From the IMG/VR virus record IMGVR_UViG_3300009784_000001, positions 246,418 to 310,417 of that record: a stretch of 64,000 bases of DNA, one strand, 5' to 3'. Under the pieces are notes generated by a model, which was not told where the DNA came from, ran no database searches, and worked only from the letters and a program-made list of their open reading frames with translations. A program made the position numbers and the translations under genes. The DNA comes from a virus (taxonomy: Duplodnaviria; Heunggongvirae; Uroviricota; Caudoviricetes). Shown piece by piece: positions 53,743 through 61,854 of this stretch; within the stretch, counting starts at the first letter, position 1, and each line of letters opens with the position of its first letter.

Positions 53743-53864
53743 TCCCCTGTAGCTCAGTTGGTTAGAGTACTTAAAATGAAGTTTTCTGGGTAGGAAATGT
53801 TCAGCAATATCAATCAAAATCGCTGTTAACGAAGGGGTCGGCAGTTCGAGTCTGTCCAGGGGTT
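53743..53864 (+). ncRNA. tRNA-Asn(GTT)-like RNA with a 48-nt insert (53773-53820) in the anticodon stem
   Basis: Removing the insert restores CTTCG-CTGTTAA-CGAAG; D and T arms canonical; T1:T72 mismatch, T73. Confidence 0.85.
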
Positions 53865-53911
53865 CAAAGATTTCTTATTTAGATTAAAATAAGTGGCAGA
53901 GAAGAGGATTA

Positions 53912-53968
53912 AGAAAACATACAGCATTTTTTATCAATTCAACCATAGGAAAGAAAAAGTGTTTTCTG
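53912..53968 (+). ncRNA. Stand-alone stem-TACAGCA RNA module, copy 1
   Basis: AGAAAACA-TACAGCA...TGTTTTCT-G. Confidence 0.75.
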
Positions 53969-54355: not shown

Positions 54356-54484
54356 AGGAAAGGTACAGCAAATTGAATTAAAATTCTATTTACAATTTTA
54401 CTATGAGGAAGAGAGCTTTCATCTAAAATAGGTGGAAAACAACTCTCAAAGAAATGAGTACTTCTCTAAAAACTCTCTTTCCTG
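54356..54484 (+). ncRNA. Stand-alone stem-TACAGCA RNA module, copy 2, with a large structured interior
   Basis: AGGAAAGG-TACAGCA...TCTTTCCT-G. Confidence 0.7.
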
Positions 54485-56231: not shown

Positions 56232-56419
56232 CGAGAGGTAGCTTAATGGCAGAGCGCAGTCGGAATGTAAAATTGCAATTTAATGTTCTTAAACAAGACT
56301 GAATGGTGTGCTGTGAAAGTTTGAAAAAAGTGAATACAAACTGAATGGGGTTGCAAACCTTGCAAGTTATGATGCTTGAAGTAGAATGAGTAATTGAGGT
56401 TCAATTCCCACCCTCTTGA
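56232..56419 (+). ncRNA. 188-nt tRNA-like RNA with greatly expanded anticodon and variable regions
   Basis: Acceptor CGAGAGG/CCTCTTG-A, D arm GCTT-AATGGCA-GAGC, CAGTC/GACTG stem, GGTTCAATTCC T loop. Confidence 0.7.
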
Positions 56420-56438
56420 CAAAAAAAATTAAATTGAT

Positions 56439-59312: not shown

Positions 59313-59648
59313 ATGAAAAAAAGAATTATTATTTTATTATCATTATTTTTCATAATGAACATAAGTCAAGCAGCTATTTATAAAACAAAAAGTGAAAGTG
59401 ATGTAATTGAGAATAGTACAGGTTTATTTGGAGAAAAAAAAGTAGAGAAAATTGAAAATACAGAAGATAATTATGGTGGATTATTCAGAGCATCAGATCC
59501 AGGTGGAAGACCAGGGAATGGTGATGGAATTGGTCAGCAAGCACCATTAGGTGATGGATTAAAAATATTACTTATACTTTGTTTTTTCTTTCTTCTTTAT
59601 GAATTTTCTACAAACAAAAAAATTAACATAAAAAATTTGGATAATTAA
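59313..59648 (+). CDS. Secreted small protein with a PID-CTERM-like C-terminal anchor
   Basis: Signal peptide ending SQA; G/P-rich linker; APLGDG plus TM plus basic tail. Confidence 0.6.
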   Translation: MKKRIIILLSLFFIMNISQAAIYKTKSESDVIENSTGLFGEKKVEKIENTEDNYGGLFRASDPGGRPGNGDGIGQQAPLGDGLKILLILCFFFLLYEFSTNKKINIKNLDN

Positions 59649-59667
59649 AAAATAAATTGTAATTTTG
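59636..59667 (+). promoter_or_regulatory. Bacteroidota-type promoter for the Met / CAGCA / leader-2 transcript
   Basis: TTTG-N20-TAATTTTG. Confidence 0.7.
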
Positions 59668-59704
59668 TAGAGTAATAAGATATTTATAAGATATAAAAAT
59701 AGAT

Positions 59705-59782
59705 CGTGGTGTGGAGGAGTCTGGCTTTCCTCATCTGGCTCATAACCAGAATGTCACATGGGTTCAAATCCCATCACCGCAA
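59705..59782 (+). tRNA. tRNA-Met(CAT), initiator type
   Basis: C1:A72 mismatch, TCTGG-CTCATAA-CCAGA. Confidence 0.9.
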
Positions 59783-59787
59783 CAAAT

Positions 59788-59841
59788 AGAAAACATACAG
59801 CATTTTTTCAATTTTCAATGGGAGAAAAAAAGTGTTTTCTG
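59788..59841 (+). ncRNA. Stand-alone stem-TACAGCA RNA module, copy 3
   Basis: AGAAAACA-TACAGCA...TGTTTTCT-G, near copy of 53912. Confidence 0.75.
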
Positions 59842-59850
59842 AAAAAAATA

Positions 59851-59932
59851 AGGAAAGATACAGCAATGTTAAATGGTTAAAAGAAAATTCTGTAAAAATT
59901 TTTTGAAAAGGTTCAAATCCTATTCTTTCCTG
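59851..59932 (+). ncRNA. Stem-TACAGCA RNA module, copy 4, enclosing a tRNA-Tyr-like anticodon arm and T arm
   Basis: AGGAAAGA-TACAGCA..AATGGTTA..AAAATT-CTGTAAA-AATTTT..AGG-TTCAAAT-CCT..TCTTTCCT-G. Confidence 0.75.
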
Positions 59933-59968
59933 TAAATTTGAAAAGTTAAATTAAAAAAAATAGAAAAA

Positions 59969-60079
59969 ATGAAACAAATTAGTAGTACATATTGTCTTGG
60001 AAGTTCATCAGCGATTAGTTTTGCTGGTACAACATCCTTTTGTACTTATCATTTTTATGATAATTTTGTTTCAAGTTAA
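59969..60079 (+). CDS. Attenuator leader peptide 2: MKQISSTYCLGSSSAISFAGTTSFCTYHFYDNFVSS (36 aa)
   Basis: Translated by hand; 25 of 36 codons are S/T/Y/C/F/A/L; 3' end complementary to the terminator 5' arm. Confidence 0.82.
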   Translation: MKQISSTYCLGSSSAISFAGTTSFCTYHFYDNFVSS

Positions 60080-60108
60080 AAAAAGAATTACCTTAACCTG
60101 GCAAGGAT

Positions 60109-60153
60109 AAACCTGAAACAAATCTATAAAAAAGAAAAGTTTCAGGTTTTTTT
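60109..60153 (+). terminator. Attenuator terminator 9 nt before tRNA-Ser(GCT)
   Basis: AAACCTGAAAC / GTTTCAGGTTT plus T run. Confidence 0.85.
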
Positions 60154-60162
60154 AATTTATAT

Positions 60163-60247
60163 GGAAAGTAAACCTATAAGGTGTAGGAACCGCCTGCTAA
60201 GCGAGTTGTACAATTAAATGTATGTGAATCGTGTTCACTGCTCTCCG
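60163..60247 (+). tRNA. tRNA-Ser(GCT)
   Basis: CGC-CTGCTAA-GCG, long variable arm, G73; atypical T loop. Confidence 0.78.
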
Positions 60248-60288
60248 CAAAAGTTCTTTGAAATTGTTGGTTAATTATAAATTATTAT

Positions 60289-60371
60289 GGATTAGTTGGG
60301 TAGTGGCAATCCCAAGACACTGTAACTGTCTCGCCTTCGGGCTTTCGCTGGTTCGAGTCCAGCCTAATCCA
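60289..60371 (+). tRNA. tRNA-Tyr(GTA)
   Basis: AGACA-CTGTAAC-TGTCT, variable arm GCC-TTCG-GGC. Confidence 0.92.
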
Positions 60372-60442
60372 CATAAAAATATTTTTCTTAATAACTATAC
60401 TTTTTTAGTTCGATGCGATATTTATATATAAATGTAAATATT

Positions 60443-61702: not shown

Positions 61703-61773
61703 GCTGTGTTAGTATAAGAGTATTACATTGGCTTTGTAACCCAAAAATGGGGATGCGATTTCCTCACACAGCT
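61703..61773 (+). tRNA. tRNA-Thr(TGT)
   Basis: TTGGC-TTTGTAA-CCCAA, acceptor GCTGTGT/ACACAGC. Confidence 0.85.
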
Positions 61774-61782
61774 CTAAATTAA

Positions 61783-61854
61783 GGGCTTATCATATAATAG
61801 CTATTATGCCACCCCTGCAAGGTGGTTATTGGAGTGCAATTCTCCATAGGTCCA
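61783..61854 (+). tRNA. tRNA-Ala(TGC) with C33
   Basis: G3:T70 wobble, A73, CCACC-CCTGCAA-GGTGG. Confidence 0.85.

What the first reader, a model, noticed from the sequence alone, without database searches (positions are those of the whole stretch)
59851..59932. TACAGCA module wrapping a tRNA-Tyr-like anticodon arm and T arm
Seen: inside the 8-bp stem lie a D-loop-like AATGGTTA, an arm AAAATT-CTGTAAA-AATTTT with a canonical CT-GTA-AA loop, and AGG-TTCAAAT-CCT. Copies 1 and 3 carry CATA and TGGGA at a similar distance from CAGCA, resembling Met and Pro anticodon-loop 3' halves (weak). Inference: these RNAs display anticodon loops as decoys or substrates, and this one lies immediately upstream of leader 2.
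Basis: partly seen in the sequence, partly recalled or inferred. Interest (0 to 1): 0.7.

Follow-up and report, generated by a model that had tools for sequence, protein, structure and literature searches.

The report
tRNA-mimic RNA on Ro60-type handle
This 82-base stretch of a giant phage most likely encodes a small non-coding RNA that carries a tyrosine-tRNA look-alike (without an amino-acid end) on a conserved "handle"; RNAs with this handle cluster around the gene for a Ro60-shaped protein in many phages, and the handle is nearly the same as that of the unexplained Class I RNAs of social amoebae.

Summary
At 59851-59932 an 8-bp helix (AGGAAAGA/UCUUUCCU) is followed by UACAGCAA. It encloses a D-loop remnant, a 7-bp arm with a CU-GUA-AA loop, and a T arm (GGUUCAAAUCC).

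It is not a decoding tRNA (Rfam 22.4 bits, cut-off 29; ARAGORN calls it only at relaxed thresholds). It belongs to a family of "AG-helix + WCAGCAA ... CU-G" RNAs:
- In 77 phage loci with a DUF2828/DUF7788 gene, 64 such modules pass a strict filter, against 0-2 for scrambled motifs.
- All 64 lie on the gene's strand, and 36 lie within 500 nt of it.
- This phage has six strict hits; five are intergenic and on the + strand, and one abuts the start codon of its own DUF2828 gene.
- The AF2 model of that protein matches Ro60 over its full length.

Several unrelated phages carry the same layout as this element (handle, anticodon arm, T arm). The decoy function is untested.

Apart from the partial tRNA hit, the only Rfam family that resembles it is the Dictyostelium Class I RNA. 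This scan has reported the family before on other DNA. I found no paper describing it in phages.

The parts
59851..59858 (+). Handle helix H1, 5' strand AGGAAAGA. Starts with the family's invariant AG; the preceding A gives AAG, as in Class I RNAs.
   Evidence: Sequence. Passes the strict family filter. Helix pairs 3-7 take several Watson-Crick pair types (all four at pair 5) across 74 modules.
59859..59866 (+). Conserved single-stranded motif UACAGCAA (family consensus WCAGCAA). With U59867 it is identical to UACAGCAAU in the Rfam Class I RNA consensus.
   Evidence: model consensus GaUcuC-CUUACAGCAAU.
59867..59882 (+). Lead or D-arm remnant UGUUAAAUGGUUAAAA. Contains a GG like G18-G19; UUAA/UUAA could form a 4-bp hairpin.
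   Evidence: Rfam tRNA alignment, D arm with non-canonical pairs. A similar (A/U)GGU(A/U)AAAAG occurs in twins L363 and L367.
59883..59903 (+). Anticodon-arm mimic: 7-bp stem GAAAAUU/AAUUUUU with the 7-nt loop CUGUAAA (GUA, Tyr-like).
   Evidence: The same loop occurs in L230+2964, L378+11966 and L364:2346.
59904..59906 (+). Short variable-region equivalent, UGA.
   Evidence: Segmentation.
59907..59923 (+). T-arm mimic AAAGG-UUCAAAU-CCUAU, flush against the 3' strand of H1 as the T stem is against the acceptor stem in tRNA.
59924..59932 (+). Handle helix H1, 3' strand UCUUUCCU, plus the conserved following G. CCUGU matches the CUGU 3' end of Class I RNAs.
   Evidence: G, or A then G, follows CU in all 74 because the filter requires it; scrambled-motif controls; Class I RNA ends.
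59788..59841 (+). Sibling module (copy 3), directly upstream: AGAAAACA-UACAGCAU-cargo-UGUUUUCU-G, short cargo.
   Evidence: Weak RF01414 hit at 59789-59841, 16 bits.
53912..53968 (+). Sibling module (copy 1), near-identical handle to copy 3.
54356..54484 (+). Sibling module (copy 2) with a 104-nt cargo, directly after tRNA-Met. A counterpart in phage G001 also follows tRNA-Met.

Best explanation
59851-59932 (probably A59850 to U59933, AAG...CUGU) encodes a small non-coding RNA of the 'AG-helix + WCAGCAA' handle family.

Structure: its 5' and 3' ends pair into an 8-bp helix. The conserved UACAGCAA strand follows the 5' half. The enclosed cargo is a tRNA-Tyr-like body without an acceptor end: a D remnant, an anticodon arm with a CU-GUA-AA loop, and a T arm stacked on the helix.

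Proposed function: the handle is the docking site of the phage's Ro60-shaped ring protein (DUF2828+DUF7788, genome 357212-358813). The RNA would then act like a Y RNA, in particular the tRNA-mimicking YrlA and Yrn1. The protein holds the handle, and the tRNA-like cargo tethers, baits or gates a partner that recognises tRNA shape or anticodon arms.

Shown here:
- membership of the family and variation of the helix sequence with pairing kept;
- genomic linkage of the family to the protein gene;
- the Ro60 fold of the protein (AF2 model);
- recurrence of the same layout in unrelated phages;
- enrichment of anticodon-arm and T-arm hairpins in cargos.

Inferred:
- that the RNA is made and processed at AAG/CUGU;
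- that the protein binds the handle;
- what the cargo recruits.
For: 1. Family and helix. The strict filter (at least 7 bp, AG start, CU end, then G, next to WCAGCAA) gives 64 modules in 1.39 Mb around 77 DUF2828 genes, against 0-2 for five scrambled motifs. The inner helix pairs take several Watson-Crick pair types, all four at pair 5. This element passes the filter.

2. Linkage to the protein gene.
- All 64 modules are on the gene's strand, 36 lie within 500 nt of it, none lies inside it, and 33 of 77 loci have at least one.
- Going the other way, 3 of 6 fragmentary viral records found by RNA pattern alone encode DUF7788. In G004 two modules sit directly upstream of the gene.
- In this phage the filter gives 6 hits against 0 in four controls. 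Four are in this tRNA region. One (genome 357173-357210) ends one base before the ATG of the DUF2828 gene.

3. Protein. Pfam finds DUF7788 at 73 bits and DUF2828 at 26 bits. The AF2 model has pLDDT 86.6 and pTM 0.87. The top 13 Foldseek PDB hits are all Ro60, Rsr or phage phiLo Ro60 over the full length (best E 1e-7, TM 0.55).

4. Same layout elsewhere. Handle, lead, anticodon arm, variable region and T arm occur in tRNA order in L341:12621, L363:4038, L364:2346, L367:3826 and L495:970, with different stems and loops.

5. tRNA parts in cargos. 15 of 74 cargos have anticodon-arm-like hairpins (1.9 expected) and 10 of 74 have T-loop hairpins (0.04 expected). Some cargos are whole circularly permuted tRNA bodies, for example L230:2956-3085.

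6. Precedent. YrlA and Yrn1 Y RNAs carry tRNA-like domains and lie next to rsr (PMC4201824). Phage phiLo has two Y-like RNAs upstream of its Ro60 gene, and they bind it (PMC12135203).
Against: - No binding, expression or end-mapping data exist.
- The element lies about 51 kb from the protein gene in this phage.
- The canonical Ro60/Rsr-binding motif (GNCGAAN0-1G, or GGUCCGA in a bulged helix) is absent.
- The protein does not match TROVE or any PDB chain by sequence, so the Ro60 analogy rests on fold and gene context.
- Linkage shows which locus the RNAs belong to, not which protein binds them; a VWA protein is encoded two genes upstream.
- The D arm is poor and the T stem has a mismatch, so an L-shaped fold is not assured.
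- The single-sequence fold energy is ordinary.
- No orthologue of this exact element was found.
Confidence: 0.6

Rival explanations
1. Anticodon-arm bait or decoy. The RNA exists to present a Tyr-type anticodon stem-loop. This would soak up, or be processed by, an enzyme that reads or cuts anticodon loops, such as a host anticodon nuclease or a queuosine-type modification enzyme. The handle protein would be secondary.
For: - Anticodon-arm-like hairpins (5 bp + Y-U-NNN-R loop) are enriched about 8-fold in cargos.
- Minimal modules carry nothing but such a hairpin: L251 CUUUUAA, L236 CUGUCAA, L378 CUGUAAA, L359 CUGUUAA.
- Related modules keep the arm but change the triplet (L363 GUU, L364 GUA, L367 GAU).
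- G34-U35 loops account for 6 of 15. From my own knowledge, these are the Tyr/Asp/Asn/His class targeted by colicin-E5-type nucleases and by tRNA-guanine transglycosylase, and Lys-UUU and Tyr tRNAs are known targets of anti-phage nucleases.
Against: - About two thirds of the 7-nt loops lack the anticodon signature, and most modules have no such hairpin.
- The CUGU loops are complementary to ACAG of the handle, which explains the G34-U35 bias without any tRNA mimicry.
- The phage encodes no TGT and no RtcB.
- No nuclease target is known for this uncultured host.
Confidence: 0.17
2. Self-contained pseudoknot. The 7-nt loop (CUGUA, 59890-59894) pairs with UACAG (59859-63) of the conserved strand, closing the RNA into a compact fold. 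The 'anticodon' is then a structural partner of the motif, not a displayed mimic. This can coexist with protein binding.
For: - 8 of 36 cargo hairpin loops have at least 4 contiguous Watson-Crick complements to their own motif, against 1.4 in loop shuffles and 2 for scrambled motifs. These include loops that are not anticodon-like, such as AUUGCUA:AGCAA.
- The unconstrained MFE fold of this element uses ACAG:CUGU.
Against: - Most loops (28 of 36) show no such complementarity.
- In the dictyostelid Class I RNAs the motif is reported as mostly unpaired (PMC7919456).
- Part of the signal comes from one loop type (CUGU).
Confidence: 0.15
3. cis-acting processing or punctuation element of the tRNA operon transcript. 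It would be a tRNA-like minihelix that gives RNase P/Z or RNase III an entry site between tRNA-Met and the leader-2 mRNA, with no role as a stable RNA.
For: - It lies between tRNA-Met (59705-59783) and the 36-codon leader ORF (59969-60079).
- Modules alternate with tRNA genes in arrays of other phages.
- The helix plus T arm resembles an RNase P/Z substrate. YrlA is an RNase P substrate according to PMC4201824.
Against: - This does not explain the invariant WCAGCAA strand.
- It does not explain the tight clustering around one protein gene, including 5'-UTR copies.
- It does not explain the resemblance to stable, abundant Class I RNAs.
Confidence: 0.08
4. Decayed tRNA-Tyr pseudogene that happens to sit inside a repeat, with no function.
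For: - Sub-threshold tRNA scores.
- A 26% G+C genome, in which A/U hairpins arise easily.
- An intact tRNA-Tyr(GTA) lies 360 nt downstream.
Against: - The same layout recurs in at least four unrelated phage lineages with stems that differ while pairing is kept.
- There is no sequence similarity to the phage's own tRNA-Tyr beyond the loop.
- The element satisfies every feature of the handle filter, whose false-positive rate is about 2%.
Confidence: 0.04

Closest known systems
Bacterial and phage Y RNAs with Ro60/Rsr: YrlA/YrlB (Rfam RF02553), D. radiodurans Yrn1, Thermus phage phiLo Yrl1/Yrl2
   Same: - Small RNAs whose 5' and 3' ends pair into a stem next to a conserved protein-contact motif.
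- Variable interior that often mimics tRNA (T arm, D arm; Yrn1 also has an anticodon-like arm).
- Encoded singly or in tandem beside the gene of a ring-shaped TROVE+vWA-fold protein.
- Present in phages (PMC4201824, PMC12135203).
- The partner protein here has the Ro60 fold.
   Different: - The motif is WCAGCAA after an AG...CU helix, not GNCGAA or GGUCCGA.
- There is no RF02553 hit.
- The protein is DUF2828/DUF7788 and shows no sequence match to TROVE or to any PDB chain.
- This element keeps tRNA order (D, anticodon arm, T arm) with the handle in place of the acceptor stem. In YrlA the Ro-binding stem replaces the anticodon arm.
- In this phage the RNAs sit in tRNA arrays about 50 kb from the gene.
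Dictyostelid Class I RNAs (Rfam RF01414; Kjellin et al. 2021, PMC7919456)
   Same: - Short stem joining the 5' and 3' ends, with structure kept but sequence free.
- Conserved (A)AG start and CUG(U) end, with G pairing C.
- The conserved single-stranded motif sits directly after the 5' stem half. The Rfam consensus is CUUACAGCAAU; this element has UACAGCAAU.
- A-rich variable interior of about 55-65 nt in the short phage modules.
- RF01414 is the only Rfam family besides the partial tRNA match that comes near: 36.8 and 27.4 bits on phage modules in L361 (E 0.0024 in a 59-kb search), and 16 bits on copy 3 here.
   Different: - Class I RNAs are eukaryotic, DUSE-promoted, and reported as unique to Dictyostelia.
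- No tRNA-like cargos are described for them.
- Their known direct binder is the RRM protein Rnp1A/CIBP.
- All phage hits are below the 41.5-bit gathering score.
- This element (82 nt, structured cargo) is not hit at all.
- Common descent is not shown.
tRNA (Rfam RF00005) and tRNA-like structures
   Same: T arm with GGUUCAAAUCC, a 7-nt CU-GUA-AA loop on a stem, a terminal helix stacked on the T arm, and a location in a tRNA array.
   Different: - An 8-bp terminal helix followed by a 9-nt linker instead of 2 nt.
- A degenerate D arm and no encoded CCA.
- 22.4 bits, below the 29-bit cut-off.
- ARAGORN calls it only at relaxed thresholds and with a different anticodon.

Membership tests
Y RNA / YrlA type (Ro60/Rsr partner RNA) | The 5' and 3' ends pair into a stem that closes the RNA | tested here: met
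   8-bp AGGAAAGA/UCUUUCCU. Helix sequence varies with pairing kept across 74 family members. 64 modules against 0-2 in scrambled-motif controls.
Y RNA / YrlA type (Ro60/Rsr partner RNA) | Ro60/Rsr-binding motif (GNCGAAN0-1G in bacteria, GGUCCGA bulged helix in animals) | tested here: not met
   Neither motif is present in 59851-59932. The conserved motif is UACAGCAA. Motif definitions come from PMC4201824.
Y RNA / YrlA type (Ro60/Rsr partner RNA) | Matches the Rfam YrlA covariance model (RF02553) | tested here: not met
   No RF02553 hit at E<=10 in 59500-60400. None at gathering score in five module-rich loci.
Y RNA / YrlA type (Ro60/Rsr partner RNA) | Encoded with a Ro60 orthologue (TROVE + vWA ring protein) | tested here: inconclusive
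   The family clusters tightly around DUF2828/DUF7788 genes. The AF2 model of the protein matches Ro60 structures over its full length. There is no TROVE Pfam hit or PDB sequence hit, and this element lies about 51 kb from the gene.
Y RNA / YrlA type (Ro60/Rsr partner RNA) | tRNA-like domain (T arm and D arm able to form an elbow) | tested here: inconclusive
   The T arm is clear. The D arm is reduced to a GG-containing remnant with non-canonical pairs.
Y RNA / YrlA type (Ro60/Rsr partner RNA) | Physical binding to the ring protein | not testable with these tools
   Needs EMSA or co-purification.
Dictyostelid Class I RNA (RF01414) | Short terminal stem, (A)AG start, CUG(U) end | tested here: met
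   a-AGGAAAGA ... UCUUUCCU-GU. Feature definitions from PMC7919456.
Dictyostelid Class I RNA (RF01414) | Conserved 11-nt motif directly 3' of the 5' stem half (Rfam consensus CCUUACAGCAAU) | tested here: met
   UACAGCAAU at 59859-59867 is identical to the 3' nine positions of the consensus printed. The upstream positions differ.
Dictyostelid Class I RNA (RF01414) | Reaches the Rfam gathering score (41.5 bits); length 42-65 nt | tested here: not met
   No RF01414 hit on 59851-59932. Copy 3 scores 16 bits. The best phage module scores 36.8 bits. This element is 82 nt.
Dictyostelid Class I RNA (RF01414) | Dictyostelid gene context (DUSE promoter, Rnp1A/CIBP partner) | not tested
   Does not apply to a phage. 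I could not check whether the Class I-associated protein DDB_G0281243 is a DUF2828 protein.
tRNA (RF00005) | Full cloverleaf scoring above the curated cut-off, or called by ARAGORN | tested here: not met
   22.4 bits against a cut-off of 29, model positions 10-63 only. No ARAGORN call by default. Called only at -ps80.

The most novel reading that the evidence does not exclude
The phage 'AG-helix + WCAGCAA' RNAs and the dictyostelid Class I RNAs are one RNA class, and its conserved partner is the Ro60-shaped DUF2828/DUF7788 protein. If so, phages would supply the missing biochemical context for Class I RNAs, which have been without a function since 2004. This element would show that the class can carry whole tRNA mimics, with its anticodon-like loop either displayed to anticodon-reading enzymes or folded onto the conserved strand.
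Probability: 0.3. Interest if true: 0.85.

Novelty: new variant of a known kind. Interest (0 to 1): 0.72.

Why it matters
Ro60/Y-RNA particles are known from animals, some bacteria and a few phages. What their tRNA-like modules do is still open.

This work shows a second, sequence-unrelated protein family with a predicted Ro60 fold, widespread in tRNA-rich phages, with its own RNA handle. The partner RNAs range from 50-nt hairpins, through bare anticodon arms, to whole tRNA mimics. This element is a clear example of the tRNA-mimic kind. That gives a large natural series for asking what tRNA mimicry on a Ro-type particle is for: tethering a nuclease, baiting anticodon-directed defence enzymes, or tRNA quality control for the phage's own tRNA set.

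The near-identity of the handle to the Dictyostelium Class I RNA signature makes a long-unexplained eukaryotic RNA class testable with a specific protein candidate.

Tried and rejected
- Exact 16-mer search for relatives of the copy 2/4 handle in viral contigs: 108 hits, none with the closing strand, so all are chance.
- Synteny. Megablast and blastn against GenBank phages found nothing. The neighbouring ORF has no useful relatives. No orthologue of this exact element was therefore found.
- Sigma-70 promoter and terminator scan: no better than shuffles.
- Known ribozyme, riboswitch or sRNA families: no Rfam hit near significance other than tRNA and Class I RNA.
- A continuous second helix after the motif, which would make UACAGCA a bulge: present in copies 1 and 3 but not conserved, so dropped.
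- DNA-level inverted repeats of a mobile element: rejected, because the helix also occurs hairpin-closed (circularly permuted) inside the tRNA-shaped RNAs at 53743 and 55169, and because the inner pairs differ between copies within one genome.
- An RNA-repair or queuosine context in this phage: no RtcB and no TGT.
- G001, which has several modules, shows no DUF2828, but it is only 41% complete.
- Protein Atlas: returned only viral clusters and no information on eukaryotic DUF2828.

Full report
**What is at the site**

The window is a 26% G+C, 360-kb phage genome with terminal repeats. Positions 54-63 kb hold about 20 tRNA genes.

- AGGAAAGA (59851-58) pairs with UCUUUCCU (59924-31).
- UACAGCAA (59859-66) follows the 5' strand.
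- Next comes a lead with AAUGGUUA.
- Then a 7-bp arm carrying the loop CUGUAAA (59883-59903).
- Then three bases, and a T arm AAAGG-UUCAAAU-CCUAU (59907-23) that runs straight into the 3' strand.

Significance and tRNA status:
- The T-loop 11-mer is far from chance: 10 in the window against 0.08 expected, 7 of them in tRNA genes.
- The handle motif occurs 5 times against 0.15 expected.
- Rfam's tRNA model aligns the D, anticodon and T arms at 22.4 bits, under the 29-bit cut-off.
- ARAGORN is silent by default. At 80% thresholds it calls a tRNA at exactly 59851-59932, using the 8-bp helix as acceptor.

So this is a tRNA-shaped object, not a decoding tRNA. It has a 9-nt linker where tRNA has 2 nt, a poor D arm and no acceptor end. 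It shares only the loop with the phage's real tRNA-Tyr at 60289.

**It belongs to a family**

The window has three further free-standing copies (53912-53968, 54356-54484, 59788-59841). Two hairpin-closed, circularly permuted copies lie inside tRNA-shaped RNAs at 53743 and 55169.

Pattern scans of viral contigs found the same module in other phages with different helix sequences:
- G001 has four or more copies in two tRNA arrays.
- L233, L236, L246, L250, L251 and L258 each have one or two.

Generalised, the module is (N)AG-N5-7, then 0-2 nt, then WCAGCAA, then cargo, then N'5-7-CU, then G.

A strict filter for this finds 64 modules in 1.39 Mb around 77 DUF2828-type genes, against 0-2 for five scrambled motifs. 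Helix pairs 1-2 are A-U and G-C in all 74 because the filter requires AG...CU, while pairs 3-7 take several Watson-Crick pair types, all four at pair 5. The permuted form keeps the same helix with a different connectivity. Both facts argue for an RNA structure and against DNA-level inverted repeats.

**Link to a Ro60-shaped protein**

I tested it in three ways.

First, starting from the RNA. Of six fragmentary viral records found by RNA pattern alone (10-41% complete), three encode a DUF7788 protein. In G004 two tandem modules lie directly upstream of the gene on its strand.

Second, starting from the protein:
- All 64 modules near the 77 genes are co-oriented with the gene.
- 36 lie within 500 nt of its ends and none lies inside it.
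- 33 of the 77 loci have at least one.

Third, in this genome. The strict filter gives six hits against none for four scrambled controls. Four are the window copies. A fifth (genome 357173-357210, 15-nt cargo) ends one base before the ATG of the phage's own DUF2828/DUF7788 gene.

The protein itself:
- It has no sequence match in the PDB.
- Its AlphaFold model (47-sequence alignment, pLDDT 86.6, pTM 0.87) matches Ro60 over its full length.
- The top 13 Foldseek hits are Xenopus and human Ro60, D. radiodurans Rsr and Thermus phage phiLo Ro60 (best E 1e-7, TM 0.55).

Published Y RNAs provide the precedent. They have paired ends, a protein-contact motif near the 5' strand, a variable and often tRNA-like interior, and genes beside rsr. 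Phage phiLo has two of them upstream of its Ro60 gene (PMC4201824, PMC12135203). The canonical contact motif (GNCGAA) is absent here and the YrlA model does not hit. This is therefore an analogue with a different handle, not a member.

This element has architecture twins in unrelated phages. Each has the handle, a 17-22-nt lead (often with GGUWAAAAG), an anticodon arm, a short variable stretch and a T arm:

| Locus | Loop |
|---|---|
| L341:12621 | CUCAUAA |
| L363:4038 | CUGUUAA |
| L364:2346 | CUGUAAA |
| L367:3826 | CUGAUAA |
| L495:970 | CUUCAAA |

The stems differ while pairing is kept. Other modules carry YrlA-like permuted bodies (T arm, closed acceptor, D arm). Some carry a whole permuted tRNA-Tyr-like body, for example L230:2956-3085.

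Over 74 non-redundant cargos:
- 15 have a 5-bp stem with a Y-U-NNN-R 7-nt loop (shuffles 1.9 +/- 1.3, maximum 7 in 500).
- 10 have T-loop hairpins (0.04 expected).

Among 54 short cargos without a T loop:
- 9 have the anticodon signature (1.2 expected).
- 5-bp hairpins are enriched only at loop length 7 (25 against 9.1).

The predicted bias therefore exists. It is not universal: about two thirds of the 7-nt loops lack the signature.

G34-U35 loops are over-represented (6 of 15). One explanation needs no mimicry, because CUGU is the complement of ACAG in the handle. 8 of 36 loops have at least 4 complementary bases to their own motif, against 1.4 expected. In this element UACAG:CUGUA gives 5 pairs, which the free MFE fold uses. 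Whether the loop is displayed or folded back is open.

**Resemblance to Class I RNAs**

Another note of the scan pointed to Dictyostelium Class I RNAs, and I checked this.
- Apart from the partial tRNA match, RF01414 is the only one of 4227 Rfam families to approach the modules. It scores 36.8 and 27.4 bits on two modules in L361 (E 0.0024 and 0.58 in a 59-kb search; gathering score 41.5), and 16 bits on copy 3 here.
- The model consensus printed is GaUcuC-CUUACAGCAAU...GagAuC-UG.
- The paper describes an AAG start, a 6-bp stem of free sequence, an 11-nt unpaired motif after the 5' stem half, a CUGU end, a length of about 60 nt, and no homologue outside Dictyostelia (PMC7919456).

This element has a-AG...UACAGCAAU...CCU-GU. 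One of four proteins pulled down with a Class I RNA, DDB_G0281243, is uncharacterised. I could not check whether it is a DUF2828 protein.

**Mechanism and status**

Most likely (0.6) this is a Y-RNA-type partner RNA. The Ro60-like protein holds the helix plus WCAGCAA, and the tRNA-Tyr-like body serves as tether, bait or gate for something that recognises tRNA shape.

The main alternatives are:
- the decoy reading (0.17);
- the pseudoknot reading (0.15), which is compatible with protein binding;
- a processing element (0.08);
- a dead pseudogene (0.04).

The copy at the gene's start codon, and similar 5'-UTR copies in at least 11 other loci, hint at autoregulation. This is untested.

The phage has no RtcB or TGT.

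I found no paper on this RNA family in phages. The scan has reported the family several times on other DNA.

Noticed in passing
L001:1417-1454 (genome 357173-357210), just outside the window's genome range: A minimal handle module (AGAAAUU-AA-ACAGCAAU, 15-nt cargo, AAUUUCU-G) ends one base before the ATG of the phage's own Ro60-like gene. It leaves no room for a separate ribosome-binding site. At least 11 other phage loci have a module 25-134 nt upstream of the gene. This could mean translational autoregulation.
   Followed up: partly
window 56233-56420: An intergenic tRNA-like gene called by neither ARAGORN nor Rfam. It has a D-arm-like 5' part (TAGCTTAATGGCAGAGC) and a T arm (GGTTCAATTCC at 56398), separated by an insert of about 130 nt. 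No CAGCAA motif is present.
   Followed up: no
window 54356-54484 and L232:7355-7548: In two different phages, a long-cargo handle module (104 and 163 nt) directly follows a tRNA-Met(CAT) gene. This may be a conserved pairing.
   Followed up: no
window 53790-53797 with 53870-53877: The 5' helix strand of the permuted handle inside the tRNA-shaped RNA at 53743-53864 can also pair with ATTTCTTA just after that RNA's 3' end. That gives an alternative free-standing form. It may be coincidence.
   Followed up: no
window 61703-61773 and 61783-61854: Rfam calls two tRNAs here (51 and 45 bits) that ARAGORN does not report.
   Followed up: no
L230:3520-3945, L233:8057-8420, L384:15900-16002, L378:4827-4863: Phages carrying the handle RNAs also carry a permuted tmRNA (L230), a tmRNA (L233), a wcaG RNA (L384) and an abiF RNA (L378). 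In L378 and L384 the Ro60-like gene sits inside arrays of more than 25 tRNA genes.
   Followed up: no
L363:4038-4128, L364:2346-2437, L367:3826-3914: Homologous tRNA-mimic modules in related phages keep the arm and the CU..AA loop frame but differ in the triplet (GUU, GUA, GAU). The 'anticodon' appears to drift or be swapped.
   Followed up: partly
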